DNA from: a virus | DNA length: 64,000 bases | Strand: one strand, 5' to 3' | IMG/VR virus record: IMGVR_UViG_3300021091_005330 | Span: 13,652-77,651 of that record | Shown: in pieces, positions 10,666 through 55,345 of the stretch | How positions within the stretch are numbered: the first letter of the stretch is position 1 | Layout of the letters: the number at the start of each line of letters is the position of its first letter | Notes under the pieces: generated by a model | Seen by the model: only the letters and a program-made list of their open reading frames with translations | Databases searched by the model: none | Told to the model about the DNA's origin: nothing | Position numbers and translations under genes: made by a program

Positions 10666-13239
10666 TTATTTAATTTTAAGTTCACTCAATTTCATATATA
10701 TTTTTTGATCTTGAATGGCTATAACCTCTCCAAATACAGCATTATCTTTTTTAGTACCTTTAACAACTACTATATTTTTTTCTTGATAATTTTTATTGTT
10801 ATTAAGAGATTTGTTAGTTTCTATAAAATCATTAAATAAAAGAGTATCTATAGTATTAGTTTCGTCCGTAATTGTTACTCTACAAAATTTAGTTTTTCTT
10901 TCGTTTTGGGCTATGCCAGTATAAACATCTACTATTTCTCCTACAAAGAATAATCTTGTCCCAATAGGGGCATTTAATACTTCGGTAATAGAAAGCAAGT
11001 CTTGCCTTTTATCGGCAAAAATATCTCTCAATGTTTTTTCATAGGTATATCCAAGAAGCCTTCTTTCGTAATACCAATTAGCAAAACTTTCGCTTTTGCT
11101 GTTTTGATTATAAATATCCAAATAAGGCTCATACCTTTTTTTAATGGTTTCGAGTCTGGTAGTTTTAATTATTACTTTACCTTTTTCATCCGTGAATGTA
11201 TTAAGATGTTTTATAATTTTAATTAAATCATAATCAAATTTTTCTCCAAAAGATATAGAAAATTTCTTCTCTTTAACATTTAAAATATTCCATAATTGGG
11301 CCTCTAATACAATTTTACTTCTAGATTGCTTGAACCCAGTTAAAGCCCCTGCCTGTATCAATGAGCATAGTACTCCAATATTTAAATCTGCTTCTTCTGC
11401 GGCTTGGAATATTTCAAATTTATTAGAGTACTTATTTCTAAAACTATTTAATTTTTCTATTGATTTATCTGATATACCTTTAACAGAAAGTAATCCAAAT
11501 CTAATATCTTCATTTTCAATTGAAAAATCCATATCAGATTTAATAATATGAGGTCTAAGAAGTTTTATTCCAAAGGATCCCATTTCTTTTTGAATTTTAG
11601 ATATTTCACCAATAGGATCAGGTTCGTGTCTAGTCATTTTTAACAAAGATAAAAAGAATTGTTTTGGATAGTTAAATTTCAAATATATTGTACATGCTGC
11701 TAAAGCCGCATAAGCAATAGAATGAGATTTATTAAAAGAGTAATTCGCAGAATCTTCTAAAATTTTCCATAAAATATCACCTACTTCTTTTGGTACTTTA
11801 TTATTTTTACATTTTTCTTTAATCTTATTTTTCCACTCTTTAATTTCTTCTACCTTTTTCTTACCCACAATTCTTCTTAGAATTTCTGCTTCATCTAGAG
11901 TAAATCCAATTTTATTAGCCATTTGCATTAATTGTTCTTGATATAATGCTACTCCGCCAGTCTGTTTTAAAATATCATCGAAGAACGGATGTATTCCTTC
12001 GTATTCCTTTGTGTTTGTATATCTAGCGTATGTATCAGCGAAATCTAAAGCTCCAGGTCTAGCCAAAGCTAACACAGCGCTAAGTTCTTCTAAATTTTTA
12101 GGTTTGACTTTTTGACACACTCTAAAGTTTGTATCCGCTTCGATTTGAAATAGTCCATGTGGGGTTTGAAGATCTTGCAGAGATCTATAAATAGATGGAT
12201 CATTTAAGTCTATTTCCGTTATTTTTATGCCTATTTGTTTGCAAACGTCATCTACTACGGAAACGCTTCTTAATCCGAGAATATCTAACTTGATATTAAA
12301 CAAAGAGACCCAATTCATATCAAAAGATGACACCGGTTCTTTATCGCTAGAAAACTCTGTTGGACAAGATTCTTCTAGTTTATTATAAGATAACAATACT
12401 CCAGAAGGATGAACTCCTTTATTCTTAATAAGATTTCTAAGTTTTAAAGCGATTTCATAAGTTTCTTTATTTTCATCACACCATTTTCTGAATTTAGAAA
12501 CTTCTTCATAAGCCTCTTTGATGTCTTTAACTTGACCGAAAATTTTTGGAACCATTCCAGATACCAGGGTCATTTCTTGATCAGATTTTTCTCCGATTAT
12601 TTTTCCACATTCTTTAATTAAAAGTCTTCCGCTCAAACTGTTTAAGGTTAAAATTTTGCTAGTCTTGCCTTTAAATTTTTCTTCTAAATGTTGAAGTACT
12701 TTTTGTCTATTGTAGTAACATATATCTAAATCAACATCACACATCAACGTGCCGTCTAGATACATTACCCCGTTTACTTCTTGTTTTTTTGCTCTAATCT
12801 TAGATATAAATCTTTCAAAATAAAGGTTGTATTTCAAACTGTCTATTTGCGTGACTCCTATTAAAAATAAAATTAATGATCCTGCGGCAGATCCTCTTCC
12901 TAAGCCGACCGGAATATTGTTTTCTTTACAATAATTAATAACATACCAAACGAGTAAGATATAATCTATAAATCCTAATTCTTTAATTGTATCTAATTCG
13001 TATTTAATTCTATTAATATAATTATGATATTCCTCAGAATCCTTTTTAAGATTCAAGCTTTTTAGCCCTTTTAAGGTTAAAGCTCTAAGAAAATCATAAT
13101 TCGACGAGTCTTCGCTAATGCCTACTTCGTGTTTATATTTATCATCTATAATAAATTCTGGTAGCCTTACCCCATGAAGCGGAAGATCTATGTTAGAAAA
13201 ATTGGATTCGAACTTTTTTAAATCAACTAAATTCACCAT
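10666..13239 (-). CDS. dnaE: DNA polymerase III alpha subunit (catalytic part, lacks the PHP domain)
   Basis: GLGRGSAAGSL, FERF, DVDLD, HPSGV, KLDILGL, FQIE, YQEQLM, YSFNKSH, IRFGL..VKG, C-terminal OB fold. Confidence 0.95.
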   Translation of the reverse strand: MVNLVDLKKFESNFSNIDLPLHGVRLPEFIIDDKYKHEVGISEDSSNYDFLRALTLKGLKSLNLKKDSEEYHNYINRIKYELDTIKELGFIDYILLVWYVINYCKENNIPVGLGRGSAAGSLILFLIGVTQIDSLKYNLYFERFISKIRAKKQEVNGVMYLDGTLMCDVDLDICYYNRQKVLQHLEEKFKGKTSKILTLNSLSGRLLIKECGKIIGEKSDQEMTLVSGMVPKIFGQVKDIKEAYEEVSKFRKWCDENKETYEIALKLRNLIKNKGVHPSGVLLSYNKLEESCPTEFSSDKEPVSSFDMNWVSLFNIKLDILGLRSVSVVDDVCKQIGIKITEIDLNDPSIYRSLQDLQTPHGLFQIEADTNFRVCQKVKPKNLEELSAVLALARPGALDFADTYARYTNTKEYEGIHPFFDDILKQTGGVALYQEQLMQMANKIGFTLDEAEILRRIVGKKKVEEIKEWKNKIKEKCKNNKVPKEVGDILWKILEDSANYSFNKSHSIAYAALAACTIYLKFNYPKQFFLSLLKMTRHEPDPIGEISKIQKEMGSFGIKLLRPHIIKSDMDFSIENEDIRFGLLSVKGISDKSIEKLNSFRNKYSNKFEIFQAAEEADLNIGVLCSLIQAGALTGFKQSRSKIVLEAQLWNILNVKEKKFSISFGEKFDYDLIKIIKHLNTFTDEKGKVIIKTTRLETIKKRYEPYLDIYNQNSKSESFANWYYERRLLGYTYEKTLRDIFADKRQDLLSITEVLNAPIGTRLFFVGEIVDVYTGIAQNERKTKFCRVTITDETNTIDTLLFNDFIETNKSLNNNKNYQEKNIVVVKGTKKDNAVFGEVIAIQDQKIYMKLSELKIK

Positions 13240-43181: not shown

Positions 43182-43223
43182 ACGATTGTCTAATAAAAAT
43201 GCAGACAGGGGGATTCGTTTGCT

Positions 43224-43611
43224 TGGACCCGAAGAGAATTGAACTCTTGTCTTTTAGTGAATTTAAATTAAAATACTACAAGTTTAGTTATTTTTAGTTT
43301 TAGCTTTATATAGAAAAACAACAAACATATTTAGCGATTTTATTTTGAATACTAAGCCAATAAAGAACAAAAAAACTTTAAAGACCAAGACATCTAAATA
43401 CGCAACTATCCATTAGATGTGTCATGGTAATCACGCTGTAGAACTTAGGCTACAGATACGGTCTCCTCAACTAGAGAAACTCTAGCAGAGATATGACCTT
43501 TGTATTTGGCTGTTTTAGCAGTTAATACTTTTAAGGCTTTTTAAAGAGACCCACCTAAACCTCTACCTGCATTTTAATTTCGACTCCTAAAATCGAAACC
43601 AGTACGGGCCC
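43224..43611 (-). ncRNA. ssrA: tmRNA
   Basis: 5' GGGCCCGTACTGGTTTCGA; 3' GACAAGAGTTCAATTCTCTTCGGGTCCA; acceptor stem with G3-U wobble and A discriminator; tag frame 43519-43445; CCA not encoded. Confidence 0.93.
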
Positions 43612-45823: not shown

Positions 45824-45993
45824 CTAAATTAATTAGAGATGTTAAATTAATAGCACCATCTTGCAATAACACTGAACAATTTATAGCTGAATTTTGGAAA
45901 TATCACAAAAGAGAAAATAAGAAAAGAAACATCTTCTGGTTTTCACTTTTAGCTGTAATCTTCTTTATATGTTGGATACTATCAAAAAATTAA
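45808..45993 (+). CDS. small protein with C-terminal TM helix
   Basis: Overlap-coupled ORF. Confidence 0.5.
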   Translation: MDKRITKLIRDVKLIAPSCNNTEQFIAEFWKYHKRENKKRNIFWFSLLAVIFFICWILSKN

Positions 45994-46256
45994 AGGATTG
46001 GTGGAATGGACTTGAATATTACGAAAAGTTCTTTTTTATTGTTTTTATTCCAGCTATTTTGTTTACAATTTACGGAATCAGCGATCTTTACCTTAATCAT
46101 TTTGATCTTCTTTCTAAAGATCACCATATGGGATTTTTTCTTAGATTCTTTTTTCCGATCTCTTTAGCTCTTTTAGTTACTAGTTTAGAACGCAGAAGAA
46201 GGAACAAATTAGTTAAAGATATAAAAGAATATTTAGAAGATGAAAAAGATCAGTAA
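45969..46256 (+). CDS. two-TM membrane protein
   Basis: Two hydrophobic helices and a charged C-terminus. Confidence 0.6.
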   Translation: MLDTIKKLKDWWNGLEYYEKFFFIVFIPAILFTIYGISDLYLNHFDLLSKDHHMGFFLRFFFPISLALLVTSLERRRRNKLVKDIKEYLEDEKDQ

Positions 46257-47487
46257 AGTTGTGTCTCTTGGCGCAACTTATTATTATATGGAGATCTGGC
46301 TTACAACCCTAAAAGACAATCTAGTAGATCCAAGTTCTGAAAGATATGATTGGATAAAGAAAAATATTAATTTATACCCCGAAATCAAAATAATACATTC
46401 TGTAGATGGTAGGAATAAAGACTTAGTTAAACTTGCTTTAAAAGAATCTGGATTAAATCTTTATCAACTTGGATTTAGAACTTACGGAACTTTAGCTGTT
46501 TTTTTAACAAAATTTTTAGCGTGGAAAAAACAAGTCAAAGATAATATTCCTTACGTATGTCTTATAGAAGACGACATAGAATTAAATGAAGCATTTTGGC
46601 CTTTTTTAGAAAGCAAAAAACATTTACTAGAAGATCCAAGCATCAACATTGTAAGGCTTGGCGACTGGGGCGAAGCCTATTTAACTTCTTTGTCTTCCGC
46701 CAAAAGATTAATAGAGAAAATACAAAAAGATGGAATTTGGAGAAATATTGATGAACAATTATGGGAATGCGGAGAGTCGGTTGTAAACAAATCTATTGGC
46801 GGGGGTCAATCTGGAGTTCATTACGAAAATAGGTGGGTAAATGGCGTATGGGAACATACAGGTTATCAAGAAAATATATTTAAGCTTTTAAAGCAAACAA
46901 ATGAAGGTTTACCATTAAACACCCAACTCATAGACCAAGAACTTAGCGAAAGTTATTTTGCGGGTGGACCATTTGACATGAGAAAACGAGAAATTCAAGA
47001 CATTTTAGAAAGCGTAACGTCTCCTAGTAATTATCTAACTTTTGGTCTTGGCTCTTCGGCTATTATACTATTGAAAAATTTAAAAGAGAATGAATCTCTT
47101 ACAAGTTATGAATGGGGCGAAAGCTATCTTTCTTGTCTTAAATATAAAAATAGTTTTAATATTACTGATGAAAAGTTTATGATAAATGATTTGTCTAAAA
47201 ATGATCCTTCTTTGTTGGAAGATTTTATCAAAAAATGGGGGAAGTATGATGAAGAAATACCAAATAAAATTTTATACGATTTAATAGCGATTGACTATAA
47301 AAAATATGATACTTACATCTTAGACGGTTTTTTAAGGGGTTTGACTACTTTTTTAGCTTTAAATAATAATTCCAAGGCAGAAGTATTCATCCACGATGCT
47401 TCTAGAGATTGGTACGATTGGCTAAAGGTTATATTTAATGTAGAGCATATCTCTCAAGATATAATTAAAATTTTTAATAAAAAATAA
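46240..47487 (+). CDS. GT25 glycosyltransferase fused to a SAM-methyltransferase-like domain
   Basis: SVDG, LIEDD, AYL.S...A; C-terminal L.FG.G.S, YD.YILDG..R, IHD..R. Confidence 0.65.
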   Translation: MKKISKVVSLGATYYYMEIWLTTLKDNLVDPSSERYDWIKKNINLYPEIKIIHSVDGRNKDLVKLALKESGLNLYQLGFRTYGTLAVFLTKFLAWKKQVKDNIPYVCLIEDDIELNEAFWPFLESKKHLLEDPSINIVRLGDWGEAYLTSLSSAKRLIEKIQKDGIWRNIDEQLWECGESVVNKSIGGGQSGVHYENRWVNGVWEHTGYQENIFKLLKQTNEGLPLNTQLIDQELSESYFAGGPFDMRKREIQDILESVTSPSNYLTFGLGSSAIILLKNLKENESLTSYEWGESYLSCLKYKNSFNITDEKFMINDLSKNDPSLLEDFIKKWGKYDEEIPNKILYDLIAIDYKKYDTYILDGFLRGLTTFLALNNNSKAEVFIHDASRDWYDWLKVIFNVEHISQDIIKIFNKK

Positions 47488-47751: not shown

Positions 47752-48684
47752 ATGAGAATAAAAGGCGCGAGAATAAAAGGCACAAAACAATTAGGCTCAT
47801 TTAAAAGAGATATAAATTCATATAATAATCTTAAACTTTTTCCTAATCTTCCTAAATCTATACTAGATAATAATTCTTTATCCCCTTATCATCAATTTAT
47901 AGATCTGCCTACTGCTAATGGGATACCCAAATGGACAGAAAGTGCACCAGTTGGTTGGCAGCAATCTGCACCATATTATAATGTATTTTTAAAATTTTAT
48001 TTAAAATCAAATGGTGGAGACGAAACAGTTCCTAATGGAGGCCAAAGAATTCATGCTTTAAAAGCTGCTAGTTTTGGTTCAGCTTTAGGTAATCACAAAG
48101 CCAAGAATGTTACGAAGAATACTATTGGTACATCTAATCACGCTAATGATTGGAGTTTAAGCACCATAAGGCGCACCGTCAATATTCCACCATCCCAAAC
48201 ATTTGTTAATTTTGGATGTTTTTATAAAGTTCTTAGTAAAGATCCTTTAAGACCATTAAATTTTGGTGCAATTGCTATACATTTCTCAAGACAAGGAGTA
48301 GCAAGTTATGTAAATTATTCAGTAATACATGGCGGAGAAGTTGATCTTCTTGGAAACAGCGCTACATATACATATTTAAATACTTATAATTCATCTAAAG
48401 TTAGGGAATCTTATCATCAATGGCTTGGTCAACCAATAATAAGATTTAGAAAACTTTCTCAAATAAATCAAAATTCAGTATTTAATCGATGGCAATTTCT
48501 AAATCATAAAGTCGTAATACCAACATTTCAATCCTCCCCATCAGAAGGCGATATAGTCGATGGTAAAGCGGATTCTTGTACGATTATGATATGTTTTGGA
48601 GAGAATAATAGTTACCTTGATGATGGTTCTGGTTTAAATACTGGCGCTGTTCAATTTTTATATCCATTTTTAAGTTTAACTTAA
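47752..48684 (+). CDS. putative virion protein (beta-sandwich/carbohydrate-binding-like)
   Basis: S/N/G-rich 310 aa; GTGTAA 10 nt upstream. Confidence 0.5.
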   Translation: MRIKGARIKGTKQLGSFKRDINSYNNLKLFPNLPKSILDNNSLSPYHQFIDLPTANGIPKWTESAPVGWQQSAPYYNVFLKFYLKSNGGDETVPNGGQRIHALKAASFGSALGNHKAKNVTKNTIGTSNHANDWSLSTIRRTVNIPPSQTFVNFGCFYKVLSKDPLRPLNFGAIAIHFSRQGVASYVNYSVIHGGEVDLLGNSATYTYLNTYNSSKVRESYHQWLGQPIIRFRKLSQINQNSVFNRWQFLNHKVVIPTFQSSPSEGDIVDGKADSCTIMICFGENNSYLDDGSGLNTGAVQFLYPFLSLT

Positions 48685-48709: not shown

Positions 48710-48784
48710 CTATTTAATTCTCTCTTTTAAATAAAGTATATAAAGCAACACAACACCACATAATAGCCAAGAAGATATACTCAT
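48710..48784 (-). CDS. 24-aa single-TM micropeptide
   Basis: MSISSWLLCGVVLLYILYLKERIK*, 9 nt after a minus-strand GTGTAA. Confidence 0.45.
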   Translation of the reverse strand: MSISSWLLCGVVLLYILYLKERIK

Positions 48785-48842
48785 ACCTATAACTTACACA
48801 TAGAAATTATTGATTTTCTATGGTTACGATAATATAATTATT

Positions 48843-49733
48843 ATGAATTTAGAACTTCTTAAAAATCATCCATATATTTCGCCAGATATAAAAATAGAAA
48901 GATTTAATAGCCCATACAATTATATTGTAATAGATAATTTATTTAAAGAAGAAATATACAACTCAATGTGCGAACTATTTCCTAAATATATTGATCGCCA
49001 GAAAAAGCCAGCAGGAAAAATAGGAGACAGCGAAAGATTTTACAATGCTCTTATATATTCTATGAAAGAAGAAGATTGCAAAGGCGGATATGATTTTTTT
49101 ACAAGTGAAATATGGAAAGATTTTATAGCAGAAACTTTTGGATTAATATTAAATCAACATACTGCATATTCTTTGCATTTTCATAATGGATCTCCAGAAA
49201 CTCCTTCTAAAAGCGGTTGGCCTCATGGAGATATAGCTGTTTGCTCTGTTATAGATGATCCATCTAAAAAGATTAAAATAGCAGCGCATGATTGCATATA
49301 TGATGAAGACACAGAAGATCTTCAACCTCACACCAATAAAGTTGTAAGACAAGTTGCGCTCTTGTATTATTTTAATAACAAAAAAGACTTACAAGAAGGA
49401 GATGGTGGAGGTACTGGCGTTTATACTTCTTATGATGAAGAAAGTCTTGTAAAAGAAGTTAAACCAATTAATAATCGTATATTTGCTTTCGAAGTGTGCC
49501 CACATTCTTATCATGGATTTATTGGAGCAAAGTTTGATAGATCATCTATAGTTCAATGGTTTCACTCAAGCCCTTCTTACTTTTTATATAGAAATTTGGC
49601 GGGGATGAAAAACAGAGTTAAGAACAACTTAGAGTTTTTTGAAAGATGGAAGAAGGGTACGCTTTGGAATATTGAAAAAGATCCTTACTATTTTAAATAT
49701 TTTAATAGTAGTTTAAAAGAGTTGTTAAAGTGA
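48843..49733 (+). CDS. 2OG-Fe(II) oxygenase
   Basis: PY.YIVIDN, GWPHGD, R.VA.LYY.N, GGGT..Y, P.NNR...F....SYHG, R.S..QW; start MNLE after TTGATT-N17-TATAAT. Confidence 0.85.
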   Translation: MNLELLKNHPYISPDIKIERFNSPYNYIVIDNLFKEEIYNSMCELFPKYIDRQKKPAGKIGDSERFYNALIYSMKEEDCKGGYDFFTSEIWKDFIAETFGLILNQHTAYSLHFHNGSPETPSKSGWPHGDIAVCSVIDDPSKKIKIAAHDCIYDEDTEDLQPHTNKVVRQVALLYYFNNKKDLQEGDGGGTGVYTSYDEESLVKEVKPINNRIFAFEVCPHSYHGFIGAKFDRSSIVQWFHSSPSYFLYRNLAGMKNRVKNNLEFFERWKKGTLWNIEKDPYYFKYFNSSLKELLK

Positions 49734-50446
49734 AAAAAGACATTATTATTGTAGATGATTTTTATGAAAATCCAATTGAAGTAAGGCAGTATGCTTTAAA
49801 AGAATTAAGAGAAAAAGCGTATCGTCCATATAACGATGAACCTTCTAGTTGGTTTGCCACACCTTTTAAAGAATCCAAAGACTGTCCTTTTAAAAGTTCA
49901 AAAGAACTTATATCTAAGTTGGAATTTTTAATAGGAGAAACCATAGATTTAGAACATTGGAATAGTACTTTTGATCCATATTTTAATGGAGAGGTCTCTT
50001 CAAAAAGCACTAGATGGAATTGTTGTTTTCATTTTAAGCCTATTTGTCCTACAGAAAAACCTGGAAATAGAGTACATACTCATTGTGTTAATCCTAAGAA
50101 TAGCTGGAATAACGTAGGATATAAAAATTGGGCAGGACTAATTTATTTAAATCCTTTACAGCCTTTGAATGCGGGCTTAATGAATTTTACACACATTCAT
50201 GGAAAAGAAATGAATAATAAAGAATATATGTTTACGGATGTGCCTATAAATCCAGAATCTAGATGGAAATGGGTAGATTCATTTGGAGCAGTTTTTAATA
50301 GGTTGATTTTAGAAAGATCAGACATACCTCATCAAGGAGCTAACGGGTTCTCAAATGACTTAGAGGAAGGAAGACTATTTCAAACATTCTTTTTTAAGAC
50401 TATAAATAAATTAGAAGAAAAAGCAGTAGAAATTAAATGTTTTTAG
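49730..50446 (+). CDS. DUF6445-like 2OG-Fe(II) oxygenase
   Basis: IIIVDDFYENP..VR.YAL, WAGLIYLNP, FNRLIL.....PH, GRL.QTFF. Confidence 0.75.
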   Translation: MKKDIIIVDDFYENPIEVRQYALKELREKAYRPYNDEPSSWFATPFKESKDCPFKSSKELISKLEFLIGETIDLEHWNSTFDPYFNGEVSSKSTRWNCCFHFKPICPTEKPGNRVHTHCVNPKNSWNNVGYKNWAGLIYLNPLQPLNAGLMNFTHIHGKEMNNKEYMFTDVPINPESRWKWVDSFGAVFNRLILERSDIPHQGANGFSNDLEEGRLFQTFFFKTINKLEEKAVEIKCF

Positions 50447-50907
50447 CGTGTTTTTTATTTTTGTATTTATTTTTTTTTGTAATCTTTGTTTTAAAAGATG
50501 TTTTATTTATTAAAACATTTATTTCTCCTAAGATATTTATTTTTTTAGATAAAATTCGTTTATTTTCTACGTGGGATTTATTTATAGGCATGGGGCCTAT
50601 GTATTACGATATAAAAATAACAGCTCTTTCAAATAAAAAAACGTATATATGGTATTTAAGAGATACAAAAAATATTGGAGATACTGTAATAAATTCTGGG
50701 GCTTCAAGACTGACTATTTGTTTTTATTATAAACAATATTTTTCTTTTTTTCTTAATAATTATTTTTTAGAAAATATAACTAAATATTTAAAAAATAAAT
50801 CAGAAGAATTAATTTATTTTAAAATAGAAGAAATATGGTATGACCCTTATTCTTCTAACGAAATAAAAGATAGATCAAATTTAATATTTGATTCTAAGCT
50901 TAAATGA
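50437..50907 (+). CDS. SdpA/DUF5819-like membrane protein
   Basis: N-terminal TM, then L.STWDLF (cf. Q.W.MF); directly precedes the HTTM gene. Confidence 0.5.
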   Translation: MFLACFLFLYLFFFVIFVLKDVLFIKTFISPKIFIFLDKIRLFSTWDLFIGMGPMYYDIKITALSNKKTYIWYLRDTKNIGDTVINSGASRLTICFYYKQYFSFFLNNYFLENITKYLKNKSEELIYFKIEEIWYDPYSSNEIKDRSNLIFDSKLK

Positions 50908-51761
50908 ATCTTATAGATATATATAATTTCTTTTTTAATTATCAGATAGAAAGTTCTTTTGCGGCTTTTTTAAGAGTTATAACTTGTGGATATGCAACCG
51001 CTTTTATTGGGTGGTCAATTAAAGATGTTTTATTTTTCTCTCATCCAAATAAAATATTTAGTGGTGAAAATTATATAAGATTTTGTAAAGAAAAATATCC
51101 ACAAATATCTCTTTTTAATATTTTTCCTAATTCAATTGTGGCTTATAAAATAATAGTTTTTTGTTGTTTTCTTTTCGGTATATTTTCTACCCTAGGTTTT
51201 ATTACAAATCTTTCTGTTTTATTATTTACTATATTTTTTATATCTTTACAAAGCAGAATTCTTCCTATTATATTTACTGGAGGAGATGTTGTGGTAAGAG
51301 TTTTACTTGTAGCTTTATTTTTTATTGATTGTGGTTCTAGATATTCTTTAGATCATTTATTAAACATTTCTACAGATCAGCAAGCGGTGAATGGTTTTGG
51401 AGCTAGACTAGTTCAACTAACTATAGTGTTTGGATACTTTTTATCTGGATTCGCTAAATTAAAAGATAATTTTTGGGTAAGTGGAGAAGCTTTTAAAAAT
51501 GCTATGCATTCTGTTTTGTGGTCTAGAAGAATATGCCTAGACTTATTCAAAAGAAAATTTATATATTTACCATTAAATTATTCAGTATTATTTTTTGAAT
51601 TTTTTGCCCCGATTCTTTTTGCTTTAAAAGAGACAAGAGTATTTGCTATATTCTTTGGAATATTGTTACATCTAGGCATTATAATATTCATGAGAATAGG
51701 TTTTTTCGGTCCAATTATGCTTATTGCTCTTATGTATTTCTGCAATAGTTTCTTTAAATAA
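50904..51761 (+). CDS. HTTM-domain membrane protein (SdpB / vitamin K-dependent carboxylase-like)
   Basis: Multiple TMs; GGD, SLD, RL.Q....Y..SG.AKL....W.SG.A, E, G..LH.GI...M.IG.F...M. Confidence 0.8.
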   Translation: MNLIDIYNFFFNYQIESSFAAFLRVITCGYATAFIGWSIKDVLFFSHPNKIFSGENYIRFCKEKYPQISLFNIFPNSIVAYKIIVFCCFLFGIFSTLGFITNLSVLLFTIFFISLQSRILPIIFTGGDVVVRVLLVALFFIDCGSRYSLDHLLNISTDQQAVNGFGARLVQLTIVFGYFLSGFAKLKDNFWVSGEAFKNAMHSVLWSRRICLDLFKRKFIYLPLNYSVLFFEFFAPILFALKETRVFAIFFGILLHLGIIIFMRIGFFGPIMLIALMYFCNSFFK

Positions 51762-51762
51762 T

Positions 51763-52368
51763 ATGAAAAAAATATTAGTTTTAGGTGGCACGAAGTTTAT
51801 AGGTAAAAACTTTGTTGAATACATAATTAAACATCAAAGTCATTTATACGAAGTTATTCTTGCTAACAGAATGATATCGAATAAAGACGCTTTTCCTGAT
51901 TTGGAATCAATATATTTGGACAGAGAAGACCCTAGATCTTTTAAAGCATCTTTAAAAGAAAAAAAATATGATTTTGTAGTTGATTTTTGCGGATATACTT
52001 ATTCAAATATAGAAAACATAGCGACTTTTTTTAATTTTAATAAATATATTTTTATATCTTCTAGTGCTGTAGAGCATTTGGATGTAATTAAAGCTAGTAA
52101 TGATAAAAACTCTTTAATATACGCAATTAATAAACAAGCAGCGGAAAATTATATTATTAGAAACATATCAAACTATGCAATAATTAGACCATGCTATGTG
52201 GTTGGAGAAGATGATTATACAGATAGATTTTTAAAATTAAAAGATAATTATTATATATGGAAAGAAACGAAAGTTCCTCTTAGATATTTTATTCCATCAA
52301 ATATATTAGCAGAGTTAATACATAAAGAAATTCAAAGAGAAGAGAATAAAATTATTAATCCATGCTAA
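51763..52368 (+). CDS. atypical SDR / NAD-dependent epimerase family protein
   Basis: KILVLGGTKFIG, D.VVDF..Y, YIFISS, YAINK, IRP.YV.G. Confidence 0.85.
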   Translation: MKKILVLGGTKFIGKNFVEYIIKHQSHLYEVILANRMISNKDAFPDLESIYLDREDPRSFKASLKEKKYDFVVDFCGYTYSNIENIATFFNFNKYIFISSSAVEHLDVIKASNDKNSLIYAINKQAAENYIIRNISNYAIIRPCYVVGEDDYTDRFLKLKDNYYIWKETKVPLRYFIPSNILAELIHKEIQREENKIINPC

Positions 52369-52374
52369 AAATTA

Positions 52375-52407
52375 TAGCGATAGCAAGAATAGAACTTACT
52401 ATCGCTA
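52375..52407. terminator. putative bidirectional intrinsic terminator
   Basis: TAGCGATAGCAAG-loop-CTTACTATCGCTA hairpin between convergent genes. Confidence 0.6.
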
Positions 52408-52414
52408 ATTCTAA

Positions 52415-52771
52415 TTAGTCTATTTTGACTTTGTTTTGAGTCTTTTTGTTTTCCTTTTGAAAGGTAATAGTCAGCAAACCATCTTCATGTTTTGCTTTGA
52501 TTTCCGAAAGGTCAACTTTTCTTGGCAAATAAAAAGCTTTTTGGTACTTTTCTTTGCCTTCTTTTCTATTAGCTGAAATAGTAATAGAATCACTATTTGT
52601 AGAAATATCAATATTTTCTTTTTTATAACCCGCAAGAGGTACTTCTAGAATATACTGATTGTTTTCTAGACTGAATGAATGATCATTATTATTCCAATTA
52701 ACCAAAGGCTCACTAAATACTTGATCAAAAAGATCTAGTGGGCTTCGTCCATTTCTTAATGTTAGTAGCAT
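52415..52771 (-). CDS. small heat-shock protein Hsp20
   Basis: alpha-crystallin motifs LAGYKKENI.I, F.LP..VD...I.A...DGLL.IT, C-terminal VKI. Confidence 0.93.
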   Translation of the reverse strand: MLLTLRNGRSPLDLFDQVFSEPLVNWNNNDHSFSLENNQYILEVPLAGYKKENIDISTNSDSITISANRKEGKEKYQKAFYLPRKVDLSEIKAKHEDGLLTITFQKENKKTQNKVKID

Positions 52772-53318: not shown

Positions 53319-53496
53319 TCTAAAACTAAGTAAAAAACAAAAGAAAAAATTGTTAGCAAAAGGAAAACTAAGAGATCCATTTGAAATATGGGTAGATCAT
53401 CATAACCATAAATTAGAAATAATTAGAACTTGTAGTAGTTTATTGGGCGCCACAGTGTCTTCTCTAGTTTTATTAAAAGTATTTGGAGTATTATGA
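53293..53496 (+). CDS. small basic protein with C-terminal hydrophobic helix
   Basis: Coupled ORF. Confidence 0.55.
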   Translation: MITIKDISNLKLSKKQKKKLLAKGKLRDPFEIWVDHHNHKLEIIRTCSSLLGATVSSLVLLKVFGVL

Positions 53497-53801
53497 ATTG
53501 GATTAAAGTATTAAATTTTATTGATGGTATTTTTCCTGTTAAGGAAAAAGATTTAAAGCTTGGTGCTTTGTACAAGATACAAGGCGAAGAACTACCATTT
53601 AGATATATTCAATATAGTCATTTAAAAAACGCTAAGAAAAAAACATTTCATTTTAAACATCATCAATTAAAAGAATATATATTTAAAGACCTTAGCAAAG
53701 TCGAAAGAGAAGCCGACAAAGAAGAGATAAGAACATATAACTTAATAAAGGCACACGTAAATGATATCGCAAATAAAACCGCTAACATTAACTATAATTA
53801 A
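53493..53801 (+). CDS. hypothetical protein
   Basis: Coupled ORF. Confidence 0.55.
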   Translation: MNWIKVLNFIDGIFPVKEKDLKLGALYKIQGEELPFRYIQYSHLKNAKKKTFHFKHHQLKEYIFKDLSKVEREADKEEIRTYNLIKAHVNDIANKTANINYN

Positions 53802-54375
53802 TGGATCTATTGGCGGGAAGAATGGAAACACAGCATCTCTTATTAAAAAGATAAAAAAGAAAATAAATAAAATAGATCCTAGTATTAAAATAAAGATACT
53901 TCATCTTCATAAAGATTTTTATTGGCCAAAGGTTAGACACATTATCAAAGAAAGCGATGCTTTAATTTTTTCTACTGGAACCTATTGGGATAGTTGGGGA
54001 TCACCAATGCAGCAATTATTTGAAAAGATGACCGAGATTGAAGGTAAACAACATCTTCTTGGTAAACCAGCTGGAGCAATAGTAACAATGCATTCTGTGG
54101 GTGGTAAAGAAATAGCTTCGCGAATGCAAGGCGTACTATGTTCTATGGGATGTGTTTTGCCACCGTTTTCAGCTTTTGCGTATAGTTATGCAGACCATAT
54201 CGCTCATCAATCTAGGTTCATGGGCAAAAAACTTCTCGATGATGTTTGGCACATCGAAGATCTTCATGCTTTATTATGGAATATTATTGAATACACAAAA
54301 GGAAATAAAGATTGGAAAGTTTGGAATTATCTTGATACAGAAGCTTATAATCCAACTTCCGTCTGGTTGAAATAG
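53761..54375 (+). CDS. NADPH-dependent FMN reductase / flavodoxin-like protein
   Basis: IINGS....GNTA.L, SDA.IF.T.TYW, L.GKPAG.IVT....GG. Confidence 0.85.
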   Translation: MISQIKPLTLTIINGSIGGKNGNTASLIKKIKKKINKIDPSIKIKILHLHKDFYWPKVRHIIKESDALIFSTGTYWDSWGSPMQQLFEKMTEIEGKQHLLGKPAGAIVTMHSVGGKEIASRMQGVLCSMGCVLPPFSAFAYSYADHIAHQSRFMGKKLLDDVWHIEDLHALLWNIIEYTKGNKDWKVWNYLDTEAYNPTSVWLK

Positions 54376-54385
54376 GAATAAAAAA

Positions 54386-54526
54386 ATGCCAAATAAAAAG
54401 ACCGATTCTATTTATACCAATAAAAGTCAAGCTGGTAAAGGAGATCAACCTAGGAGTGTTGGAAAAAAATATTGGGATAATTTTCAAAAAATAGATTGGA
54501 AAAAGAAAAAAAATAAAAAAGTGTAA
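54386..54526 (+). CDS. 46-aa small phage protein (GKGDxPR motif; absent from the ORF track)
   Basis: MPNKK...AGKGDQPRSVGKKYWDNFQKIDWKKK*. Confidence 0.65.
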   Translation: MPNKKTDSIYTNKSQAGKGDQPRSVGKKYWDNFQKIDWKKKKNKKV

Positions 54527-54538
54527 CATATCTTAGAT

Positions 54539-55258
54539 ATGTTTGCTGTAATTGTTCCATATAGAAATAGAGAGTATTTTTTAGAAGTTTTTTTAAAAGA
54601 TGTTATAGCTTATATTAAAAACCCCGCTTTAGGTAAATACAAAAAAACTGATAAAGACTTTATAGTGATAGTAAGCGAACAAAAAGATGATTTTTTATTT
54701 AACAATGGTTTATCAAAAAATATTGGAGCCTTTTTCGCCAATCAAATAGATAAAGAGATATCTCATTTCATTTTTAATGAAGTAGACACTATACCTTTAG
54801 AACATATAGATTATTTTACTTCTGAAAATATAGTTCATTTTATGAATTTTGGCTCATGCAAAATAATTAAAGATGATTATTTTAGAGTAAATGGTTATAA
54901 TCCACTATACAATGGATGGGGTCTTGAAGATAGTGATTTTTATGAAAGACTAGATGCGTTTGATGTTCTTTATAAAAAAGAATTTTTATGGAAAGCAGGC
55001 GATGTTTCTGAAAAAAAATATAGAAATTTAGAATGGGAATATTGGGGCGCTGTAAATAGAAAAGATAAATGGGATATAAAAGAGTTCACGGATAGAAATG
55101 CAAAAATGCTTGATTTTTTTAGATCATTAAATAGAGAGACTCAAAGAAGTTGGGCTTCTATTCAAGGAGTTAATTTAGTTAATACCAAAAAAATAAAATT
55201 AGAAAATAAATTAAATAATATATATTTTATATCGTATAATAGTGCAGATTATATTTAA
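54539..55258 (+). CDS. GT7 (beta-1,4-galactosyltransferase-like) glycosyltransferase
   Basis: VIVPYRNR, EQ....FN.G...NIG, VD..P, VNGY...Y.GWG.ED.DF..R; GTGTAA 12 nt upstream. Confidence 0.85.
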   Translation: MFAVIVPYRNREYFLEVFLKDVIAYIKNPALGKYKKTDKDFIVIVSEQKDDFLFNNGLSKNIGAFFANQIDKEISHFIFNEVDTIPLEHIDYFTSENIVHFMNFGSCKIIKDDYFRVNGYNPLYNGWGLEDSDFYERLDAFDVLYKKEFLWKAGDVSEKKYRNLEWEYWGAVNRKDKWDIKEFTDRNAKMLDFFRSLNRETQRSWASIQGVNLVNTKKIKLENKLNNIYFISYNSADYI

Positions 55259-55345
55259 GGTGTGATGGCTGAGTGGTCTAAAGCAGGAGTTTACTAAACT
55301 CTCGTAGAGTAAAATCTACCGTAGGTTCGAATCCTACTCGCACCG
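55259..55345 (+). tRNA. tRNA-Ser(ACT), long variable arm
   Basis: Acceptor GGTGTGA/TCGCACC, discriminator G; D arm GCTGAGTGGTCTAAAGC; anticodon arm GGAGT-TTACTAA-ACTCT; T arm GTAGG-TTCGAAT-CCTAC; no CCA. Confidence 0.9.

What the first reader, a model, noticed from the sequence alone, without database searches (positions are those of the whole stretch)
48843..52368. Phage operon combining two 2OG-Fe(II) oxygenases, an SdpA-like/HTTM (SdpB-like) membrane pair and an SDR
Seen: five co-oriented genes with overlapping or abutting ends, a promoter at 48810 and a terminator hairpin at 52375. Established: HTTM proteins are related to vitamin K-dependent gamma-carboxylase and to Bacillus SdpB, which with SdpA matures the SdpC peptide toxin; the 156-aa partner carries a W.LF motif like SdpA/DUF5819. 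I do not know this pair as a characterised phage function, nor in combination with hydroxylases and a reductase. Inference: a membrane-associated post-translational or envelope-lipid modification pathway acting on a virion protein, host receptor or small peptide. Candidate substrates nearby are the 310-aa protein at 47752 and the divergent 24-aa peptide.
Basis: partly seen in the sequence, partly recalled or inferred. Interest (0 to 1): 0.75.

Follow-up and report, generated by a model that had tools for sequence, protein, structure and literature searches.

The report
Phage split carboxylase-like membrane enzyme cassette
An uncultivated large phage carries a two-gene membrane enzyme related to the core of the human vitamin K-dependent carboxylase. 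It sits inside a separate oxygenase/reductase gene cluster, so the "five-gene pathway" is really two independent modules whose targets are unknown.

Summary
The five co-oriented, overlapping genes are real and under purifying selection. They are not one indivisible operon.

**The pair.** The 156-aa one-helix protein and the 285-aa HTTM protein are adjacent in all 15 related loci with readable flanks.
- The HTTM profile hits only human GGCX among solved structures (E 2.6e-11). Its model matches only GGCX (Foldseek TMq 0.60-0.64).
- It keeps the equivalents of Lys218, Trp223, His287 and Phe299, but not the Glu-binding Asn159/His160.

**The accessory genes.** Oxygenase 1 and the short SDR accompany the pair in about 10-11 of 15 loci.
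- The reverse link is weak: 26 IMG/VR loci carry oxygenase 1 and only 4 carry the pair.
- Whole records exist with either module alone.
- A near-identical backbone lacks exactly the pair.

**The partner's family.** The 156-aa protein is not a member of SdpA or DUF5819 (no HMM hit; hhalign 0.4-2.2%, against 82% for the control). It shares their gene position, N-terminal helix and NP…W.LF motif.

**Substrates.** The proposed substrates are not supported.

**Novelty.** I found no HTTM in 50,697 deposited phage genomes and no paper on it. This scan had already flagged phage HTTM pairs on other DNA (e1-5854973, e1-5953478).

The parts
48810..48838 (+). sigma-70-like promoter candidate (TTGATT-17-TATAAT), ending 4 nt before the ox1 ATG
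   Evidence: The pattern is present, but it is not significantly enriched over shuffles in this AT-rich DNA.
48843..49733 (+). ox1: cytoplasmic 2OG-Fe(II) oxygenase of the P4H-like 2OG-FeII_Oxy_3 type, 296 aa. It belongs to the accessory oxygenase/SDR module.
   Evidence: PF13640 is above cut-off. HxD...H...RxS is conserved in 7 of 8 homologues. There is a weak YhhC-like hit far below cut-off. It has no homologue in 50,697 GenBank phages. It occurs in 26 IMG/VR loci, of which only 4 carry HTTM.
49730..50446 (+). ox2: DUF6445-like protein of the 2OG-oxygenase-like superfamily, 238 aa, with conserved HxH...PH...R. It is an optional member of the oxygenase module.
   Evidence: DUF6445 scores 0.015, below cut-off. 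It hits phrog_1644 at 6.5e-17. The Atlas gives 28/30 DUF6445 viral clusters at score 0.95. It is present in only 6 of 15 HTTM loci. Distant homologues occur in cyanophages that lack HTTM.
50437..50907 (+). p156: single-pass membrane partner of the HTTM protein. It has an N-terminal TM helix, a W.LF motif and an alpha/beta domain. It is the first half of the core cassette.
   Evidence: It lies immediately upstream of, and overlapping, HTTM in 15/15 loci, with 17 pairs in all. The family is small, with 55 representative clusters in 1.84 billion proteins. The model has pLDDT 80.5. hhalign gives 54% (E 1.3e-4) to the Ralstonia HTTM-upstream protein. It is not in SdpA or DUF5819.
50904..51761 (+). 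HTTM protein, 285 aa: a homologue of the transmembrane catalytic core of vitamin K-dependent gamma-carboxylase. It is the second half of the core cassette.
   Evidence: PF05090 scores 50.7 bits. The profile hits human GGCX at E 2.6e-11. The model has pLDDT 84 and matches only GGCX chains, with Foldseek prob 1.0 and TMq 0.60-0.64. K185, W191, H256 and F268 are invariant and align to K218, W223, H287 and F299.
51763..52368 (+). Short SDR, 201 aa: Rossmann GGTKFIG, Ser, YxxxK, and no C-terminal substrate domain. It belongs to the oxygenase/SDR module.
   Evidence: PF01370 is matched in the N-terminal half and the motifs are visible. It is present in 11/15 HTTM loci. It also sits next to ox1 in many loci without HTTM.
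52375..52407 (.). 13-bp hairpin between the convergent SDR and hsp20 genes. It is probably the hsp20 terminator, possibly bidirectional.
   Evidence: One search places the T-run on the minus strand. One search gives z -4.2.

Best explanation
The region is a composite of two independent accessory modules. It lies in a variable island of a large uncultivated phage with a PolIII-alpha-type polymerase.

**Module 1: p156 + HTTM, the only invariant unit.**
- It encodes a two-subunit inner-membrane enzyme that is a split, minimal relative of the vitamin K-dependent carboxylase.
- The HTTM subunit supplies the quinol-deprotonating Lys, its stacking Trp, and the conserved His and CO2-site Phe.
- The one-helix partner supplies an extra helix and an extracytoplasmic domain.
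- Inferred mechanism: the enzyme uses a host quinol plus O2 to make a strong base. That base deprotonates, and probably carboxylates, a membrane-proximal or exported substrate. The substrate is not a GGCX-type Glu/propeptide client.

**Module 2: ox1 +/- ox2 + SDR.**
- This is a cytoplasmic oxidative/reductive tailoring set that exists in more phages without the pair.
- The pair has been inserted into it here.

**Shown versus inferred.**
- Shown: homology, retained core residues, strict pairing, purifying selection, separability of the modules.
- Inferred: complex formation, quinol dependence, the chemistry and the target.
For: **Pairing.**
- The pair is present in 15/15 loci, and no other gene is universal.
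- The genes overlap.

**Homology to GGCX.**
- The GGCX sequence hit has E 2.6e-11, with Lys218, Trp223, His287 and Phe299 aligned to invariant K185, W191, H256 and F268.
- The same residues are invariant across 14 phage and bacterial HTTMs.
- The fold matches GGCX only.
- The roles of these residues come from PMC12647623.

**Bacterial precedent.**
- DUF5819+HTTM pairs are modelled as a GGCX-like complex, with the partner's Leu-Phe at the quinone pocket (preprint 10.64898/2026.08.19.745780).
- p156 has a nearly invariant W.LF.
- The same gene order is seen in 8 plasmid loci.
- p156 aligns to the Ralstonia partner at 54%, E 1.3e-4.
- Atlas structural neighbours of p156 include HTTM fusion proteins (TM 0.51-0.53).

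**Selection.** dN/dS is below 1.

**Separability.**
- 26 loci carry ox1 and 4 of them carry the pair.
- One record that is 87% complete has HTTM but no ox1. One record that is 74% complete has ox1 but no HTTM.
- L023 has the L004 backbone (MT 86% and SDR 83% identical) minus p156-HTTM-p243.
Against: - No biochemical data exist for any split HTTM pair. SdpAB are needed for proteolytic processing of SdpC and are not known to carboxylate (PMC6818787).
- The Glu-binding Asn159/His160 of GGCX are replaced by G126-G127-D128, so carboxylation of Glu is unlikely.
- p156 fails the SdpA and DUF5819 profile tests.
- The resemblance of p156 to GGCX residues 399-485 is Z 3.0-3.7, within the noise of a PDB-wide search whose best Z is 4.0.
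- Complex formation was not modelled.
- ox1 and the SDR accompany the pair in most HTTM loci. The SDR start abuts or overlaps the HTTM stop in several of them, so a functional link is not excluded.
- The host, and therefore its quinone type, is unknown.
- No DCC1-like or VKOR recycling enzyme was found in four pair-bearing records.
Confidence: 0.6

Rival explanations
1. Single five-gene pathway. The hydroxylases, the SDR and the HTTM pair act in sequence on one substrate, such as a virion protein, a host receptor, a peptide or an envelope lipid.
For: - The junctions overlap or abut.
- ox1 is present in 10 of 13 informative HTTM loci and the SDR in 11 of 15, across 4 of about 6 HTTM clades.
- The SDR start overlaps the HTTM stop in L002, L003, L008 and L009.
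- ox1 is as absent from deposited phage genomes as HTTM is.
Against: - Only 4 of 26 ox1 loci carry the pair.
- Records exist with either module alone.
- L023 shows a clean indel of the pair.
- L005 and L007 carry the pair alone.
- ox2 is present in only 6 of 15 loci.
- The oxygenases and the SDR have no export signals, whereas the HTTM active site by analogy faces outward.
- No conserved substrate gene was found.
Confidence: 0.18
2. SdpAB-like maturation of an exported toxic or signalling peptide. The pair processes a phage- or host-encoded precursor into an active membrane-targeting peptide.
For: - Plasmid sdpABC operons have the same partner-HTTM order and overlap.
- SdpA and SdpB are required to process SdpC (PMC6818787).
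- There is a weak TIGR04033 hit at 8e-7.
Against: - TIGR04033 scores 28.9 bits against a cut-off of 178.4.
- p156 against SdpA gives hhalign 0.4%.
- No SdpC-like or other conserved third gene lies beside the pair in 15 loci.
- The 24-aa mini-gene also occurs in loci without the pair.
Confidence: 0.1
3. Quinol oxidase/epoxidase without carboxylation. The pair drains or alters the host respiratory quinol pool, or makes a reactive oxygenated quinone, as a host-takeover function. The SDR, where present, re-reduces the quinone.
For: - The quinol-deprotonation residues are kept while the Glu-binding residues are not.
- Bacterial HTTMs are usually joined or fused to a DCC1-like redox protein. The phage loci have none and instead place an NAD(P)-binding SDR at that position.
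Against: - The CO2-site Phe (F268) is also invariant.
- The SDR is absent from 4 of 15 loci and occurs widely without HTTM.
- No tool result bears on a quinone role for this SDR. Its nearest profile is nucleotide-sugar epimerase.
Confidence: 0.12

Closest known systems
Bacterial DUF5819 + HTTM(-DCC1) two-gene cassettes, modelled by AlphaFold 3 as a split GGCX-like complex (bioRxiv 10.64898/2026.08.19.745780)
   Same: - The partner gene lies immediately upstream of the HTTM gene.
- The partner has an N-terminal TM helix, then an NP...W.LF motif, then a small domain.
- The HTTM core residues are conserved.
   Different: - The phage partner is a separate sequence family (no HMM hit; hhalign 2.2%).
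- No DCC1-like domain or gene is present.
- The carrier is a phage.
- The cassette is embedded in an oxygenase/SDR cluster.
[quoted passage not shown]
   Same: - The HTTM fold matches (TMq 0.60-0.64).
- The equivalents of Lys218, Trp223, His287 and Phe299 are present, with Glu or Gln at the Asp263 position.
   Different: - The protein is 285 aa against 758 aa and has no lumenal clamp domain in the same chain.
- Asn159/His160 are not kept.
- The identity of the partner with the clamp region is unproven (Z 3.0-3.7).
Bacillus subtilis SdpA/SdpB (and YitP/YitO), the maturation factors of the SDP toxin
   Same: It is an overlapping two-gene unit of a small one-helix protein plus an HTTM membrane protein.
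   Different: - The HTTM protein is far below the SdpB model cut-off.
- p156 is not SdpA.
- No SdpC-like cargo, SdpI or SdpR gene lies next to the pair.
MloH, the fused HTTM carboxylase of malonomycin biosynthesis (Law et al. 2018, as cited and in PMC12186529)
   Same: It is a bacterial HTTM enzyme acting on a substrate other than Glu (alpha-carboxylation of Asp). This shows that the chemistry can be redirected.
   Different: MloH is a single fused protein in a PKS-NRPS cluster.

Membership tests
HTTM domain superfamily (PF05090) | Pfam score above the gathering threshold | tested here: met
   50.7 bits against 27.7. 49.9 bits in the six-frame search.
HTTM domain superfamily (PF05090) | Fold of the GGCX transmembrane core | tested here: met
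   The model has pLDDT 84. The top 15 Foldseek hits are all GGCX, with prob 1.0 and TMq 0.58-0.64. The next hits have E>1.
HTTM domain superfamily (PF05090) | Catalytic Lys (GGCX K218) with stacking Trp (W223), plus conserved His287 and Phe299 | tested here: met
   K185, W191, H256 and F268 are invariant in 11 phage homologues and in 14 phage and bacterial HTTMs. They align to the GGCX residues.
[quoted passage not shown] | Glu-carboxylate binding residues Asn159/His160 | tested here: not met
   These positions align to G126-G127, followed by D128.
[quoted passage not shown] | Single chain with lumenal clamp/propeptide-binding domains | tested here: not met
   The protein is 285 aa and ends with the HTTM core. 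The p156 domain against GGCX 399-485 gives only Z 3.0-3.7, which is inconclusive.
[quoted passage not shown] | Quinol- and O2-dependent carboxylation activity | not testable with these tools
   Biochemistry is required.
SdpB family (TIGR04033) | Score above the NCBIfam cut-off | tested here: not met
   28.9 bits against 178.4.
SdpB family (TIGR04033) | Adjacent SdpC-type toxin precursor gene | tested here: not met
   No third gene is conserved beside the pair in 15 loci. Plasmid sdpABC operons do have one.
SdpA (PF17418) | Profile match | tested here: not met
   There is no hit at E<=10 in the genome. None of 44 family members hits at E<=1. hhalign gives 0.4%, E 0.15, while the DUF5819-SdpA control gives 82%.
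DUF5819 (PF19136) | Profile match | tested here: not met
   No hit. hhalign gives 2.2%, E 0.022, over 31 columns restricted to the NP...W.LF motif.
DUF5819 (PF19136) | Gene immediately upstream of HTTM, N-terminal TM helix, W.LF-type motif | tested here: met
2OG-Fe(II) oxygenase, 2OG-FeII_Oxy_3 (PF13640), for ox1 | Score above cut-off and the HxD...H iron triad with a 2OG-binding Arg | tested here: met
   32.5 bits against 27. HxD, H and RxS are conserved in 7 of 8 homologues, and the L006 copy is degenerate.
DUF6445 (PF20043), for ox2 | Profile match above cut-off | tested here: inconclusive
   15.7 bits against 24, C-terminal part only. The Atlas gives 28 of 30 neighbours carrying DUF6445 at score 0.95. 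Conserved HxH...PH...R is seen.
Extended SDR / NAD-dependent epimerase-dehydratase (PF01370), for the 201-aa protein | Rossmann motif, Ser-Tyr-Lys triad and a C-terminal substrate domain | tested here: inconclusive
   The N-terminal half matches (35.3 against 20.9, profile positions 1-115 of 240). GGTKFIG, SSS and YAINK are present. The protein is too short to hold the usual C-terminal domain.

The most novel reading that the evidence does not exclude
The phage pair is an active quinol/O2-driven carboxylase that post-translationally modifies a host envelope protein or a phage protein outside the cytoplasm. That would be the first vitamin-K-type carboxylation system in a virus of bacteria. In the lineages that carry them, the adjoining 2OG hydroxylases and the SDR would act on the same target, giving a combined carboxylation plus hydroxylation maturation pathway.
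Probability: 0.1. Interest if true: 0.85.

Novelty: new variant of a known kind. Interest (0 to 1): 0.6.

Why it matters
Split HTTM + partner enzymes are widespread in bacteria and have no demonstrated chemistry. Only GGCX, MloH and SdpAB have any functional data. A phage-borne minimal version is a compact, fast-evolving and selectable form of the enzyme: 285 + 156 aa, core catalytic residues intact, no redox partner.

It would suit expression, structure determination and substrate hunting. It also implies that some phages remodel something at the host membrane through quinol-dependent chemistry.

Showing that the oxygenase/SDR genes are a separate module prevents a misleading "five-enzyme pathway" annotation.

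Tried and rejected
- Neighbourhoods came from the search for related loci instead.
- **Deposited phages.** tblastn of HTTM, p156 and ox1 against 50,697 GenBank phages found no match.
- **Species genomes.** Two genome-contig scans found nothing. No bacterial genome handle was obtained, so no host-range survey was possible.
- **Search for more p156 relatives.**
  - The profile search of 1.84 billion representatives found only 55 clusters and none linked to DUF5819.
  - A second word-index profile search added nothing.
- **Fused forms.** hhalign of p156 against the fused HTTM proteins L019 (603 aa) and Halorussus (508 aa) gave no match.
- **p156 fold.**
  - Foldseek against the PDB gave nothing at E<=0.001.
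  - GGCX 399-485 came up at Z 3.0-3.7 in the second look.
  - A PDB-wide VIA search had a best Z of 4.0 to unrelated helices. I therefore treat the GGCX-clamp resemblance as unproven.
- **Solved structures for ox1 and ox2.** Nothing significant was found.
- **Proposed substrates.**
  - The 310-aa protein is rejected as a conserved substrate because no related locus has a homologue.
  - The 24-aa peptide is rejected as an HTTM-specific substrate.
- **Phage type.** A "T4-like" label is rejected. The polymerase is PolIII-alpha-like, with DnaB, UvsX-like, RNR, ligase and rIIA genes.
- **Recycling enzymes.** No DCC1-like or VKOR gene is present in four pair-bearing records.
- **Literature.** No paper in the held library contains both 'HTTM domain' and 'phage'.


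Full report
**What is there**

The window is part of a 77.6-kb IMG/VR virus record, about 50% complete, with about 28% G+C.
- It encodes a PolIII-alpha-like polymerase, DnaB helicase, UvsX-like recombinase, RNR, ligase and rIIA. It is a large tailed phage but not plainly T4-like.
- Related contigs reach 85-178 kb.

Between 48843 and 52368 lie five + strand genes with 4-, 10- and 4-nt overlaps and a 1-nt gap:

| Gene | Length | Evidence |
|---|---|---|
| ox1 | 296 aa | PF13640 above cut-off; HxD…H…RxS intact |
| ox2 | 238 aa | DUF6445-like; conserved HxH…PH…R |
| p156 | 156 aa | no family hit |
| HTTM | 285 aa | PF05090, 50.7 bits |
| SDR | 201 aa | GGTKFIG / Ser / YxxxK |

- The promoter-like hexamers at 48810-48838 exist but are not above chance in this AT-rich DNA.
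- The 13-bp hairpin at 52375-52407 is real (z -4.2). Its T-run is on the minus strand, so it fits the convergent hsp20 gene.

**The HTTM protein is a relative of the GGCX core**

- A profile of 11 homologues (A1) hits only human GGCX among all PDB sequences (E 2.6e-11).
- The AlphaFold model (pLDDT 84) matches only GGCX chains (prob 1.0, TMq 0.58-0.64). Everything else has E>1.
- In the HMM alignment, invariant K185, W191, H256 and F268 fall on GGCX Lys218, Trp223, His287 and Phe299. E/Q232 falls on Asp263.
- According to PMC12647623, Lys218 is the general base for quinol deprotonation, Trp223 stacks on it and Phe299 stacks on CO2.
- The Glu-binding Asn159/His160 align to G126-G127-D128.
- An alignment with eight plasmid-borne bacterial HTTMs shows the same pattern. 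K, W, G, H and F are invariant, and a (D/T/N)GG(D/N) motif is general.
- The phage protein is therefore a typical bacterial-type HTTM enzyme with the quinol and CO2 sites intact and a non-Glu substrate site.
- It is not an SdpB-family member (28.9 bits against a cut-off of 178.4).

**The partner**

A p156 homologue lies immediately upstream of HTTM, and overlapping it, in every one of 15 loci with readable flanks. L006 has two tandem pairs. The family has these properties:
- It has an N-terminal TM helix, an NP motif in most members, a nearly invariant W.LF, and then an alpha/beta domain.
- It is small: 55 representative clusters among 1.84 billion proteins, all 85-214 aa.

- I took genuine DUF5819 and SdpA proteins from plasmid loci, where they also sit just upstream of HTTM or SdpB genes.
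- p156 against DUF5819 gives hhalign 2.2% (E 0.022). p156 against SdpA gives 0.4%.
- The DUF5819-SdpA control gives 82% (E 1e-5), so the test has power.
- None of 44 family members hits either Pfam model at E<=1. Membership therefore fails.
- The best local alignments nevertheless fall exactly on the shared NP…W.(L/F)F segment.
- p156 aligns over 124 columns (54%, E 1.3e-4) with the unclassified 190-aa protein upstream of a Ralstonia HTTM-DCC1 operon.
- Atlas structural neighbours include HTTM fusion proteins (TM 0.51-0.53).
- A recent preprint models DUF5819+HTTM as a split GGCX, with the partner's Leu-Phe at the quinone pocket. The p156 W.LF fits that picture, but I could not model the complex.
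- The structural match of p156 residues 52-156 to GGCX 399-485 (Z 3.0-3.7) is within the noise of a PDB-wide search (best Z 4.0).

**Is it a five-gene pathway?**

Seen from HTTM, the association looks good.
- The SDR is present in 11 of 15 loci, ox1 in 10 of 15 (two further loci are truncated) and ox2 in 6 of 15.
- These loci are spread over 4 of about 6 HTTM clades. The pair-only L005/L007 clade is nested beside an SDR-bearing locus, which suggests loss.

Seen from ox1, the association collapses.
- 26 IMG/VR loci carry ox1 homologues. Most have the SDR adjacent, with or without ox2 and a TylF/CmcI-like methyltransferase. Only 4 have the pair.
- Whole-record searches show the pair without ox1 in 136-kb (87% complete) and 93-kb records. 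They show ox1 without HTTM in 113-kb (74% complete) and 42-kb records.
- L023 has the L004 backbone of ox1, ox2, p260, MT, SDR and DUF5856. MT is 86% and SDR 83% identical. It lacks exactly p156-HTTM-p243.
- L029 is the closest relative of the window in the flanking genes (87-91% identity). It has ox1-ox2-ox2'-SDR and no pair.

The pair is therefore a separable cassette inserted into an independently occurring oxygenase/SDR module. A functional link in the lineages that have both is possible but not required by either module.

**Substrates**

- Nothing else is conserved beside the pair.
- The 310-aa protein at 47752 has no homologue in any related locus.
- The divergent 24-aa ORF (48710-48784, minus strand) is a real, conserved mini-gene of exactly 24 codons in 14 loci. 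Four of those loci lack HTTM.

**Selection and novelty**

- dN/dS is 0.08-0.56 for all five genes, and p156 evolves fastest.
- HTTM, p156 and ox1 have no tblastn match in 50,697 deposited phage genomes.
- In BFVD only giant-virus proteins share the HTTM fold.
- No paper in the held library contains both 'HTTM domain' and 'phage'.
- This scan had already flagged phage HTTM pairs on other DNA (e1-5854973, e1-5953478). Those are unchecked AI notes. My L006 locus, with two tandem pairs, shows the same kind of arrangement.

**Verdict**

It is a membrane modification enzyme of the SdpAB / DUF5819-HTTM kind.
- The partner belongs to a new family.
- The five genes are two modules, and the named substrates are not supported.
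- The most likely mechanism is a two-subunit, host-quinol- and O2-dependent base-generating (carboxylase-type) enzyme acting at the outer face of the host membrane. Confidence is about 0.6 for the enzyme and module architecture and much lower for the chemistry and the target.

Noticed in passing
window 48710-48784 (-): A 24-codon ORF encoding a single hydrophobic helix with a conserved Cys, two Tyr and an ER.K tail. It is kept at exactly 24 codons in 14 related loci, with and without the HTTM pair. It usually lies beside hsp20 or the 95-aa gene. It is a real mini-gene of unknown role.
   Followed up: partly
L006 6442-9975 (IMG/VR contig of 71,997 bases): Two tandem p156+HTTM pairs separated by a 212-aa ORF. 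The second HTTM is on a very long branch. The adjacent ox1-like gene has lost HxD, the distal His and the Arg.
   Followed up: partly
L004 7860-9947, and the same genes in L010, L012, L014 and L015: Between HTTM and the SDR, this clade carries two paralogous 243- and 260-aa proteins without family hits, plus a TylF/CmcI-like class I methyltransferase. L023 keeps one paralogue and the methyltransferase but lacks the pair.
   Followed up: partly
window 43223-43611 (-) and 55259-55345 (+): A phage-borne one-piece tmRNA (Rfam RF00023, 96 bits) with a 24-residue tag, and a tRNA-Ser with anticodon ACU. Other first-stage notes also flag both.
   Followed up: no
window 10666-13239 (-): The replicative polymerase is PolIII-alpha (DnaE)-like, with its nearest deposited relatives in Cellulophaga phages at 26% identity. 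It sits alongside rIIA/rIIB, UvsX-like and DnaB genes, which is an unusual mix for a large phage.
   Followed up: no
L020 1846-5358 (Ralstonia solanacearum megaplasmid CP023017.1): An operon of a beta-lactamase-family protein, a 190-aa unclassified partner, HTTM and a DCC1-like protein, next to a T6SS tssA gene. The partner hits neither DUF5819 nor SdpA in Pfam, yet it is the closest bacterial relative of the phage p156 family.
   Followed up: partly
L019 269-2080 (metagenome contig of 3,237 bases): A 603-aa protein with a central HTTM domain (residues 117-387) and long N- and C-terminal extensions, 30% identical to the phage HTTM. The extensions do not match the p156 profile.
   Followed up: partly
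BFVD entries A0A5K0UBG6 (Yasminevirus) and A0A3G5A327 (Harvfovirus): Giant-virus proteins share the HTTM fold. One is an 822-aa 'desaturase' with TMq 0.70. They are the only viral structural neighbours found, and no phage protein matched.
   Followed up: no
window 46240-47487 (+) and 52415-52771 (-): A 415-aa GT25-family glycosyltransferase lies upstream and an Hsp20 gene lies convergent downstream. The island is bounded by backbone genes that are syntenic in related phages, namely homologues of 45969-46256 and 53493-55258.
   Followed up: no
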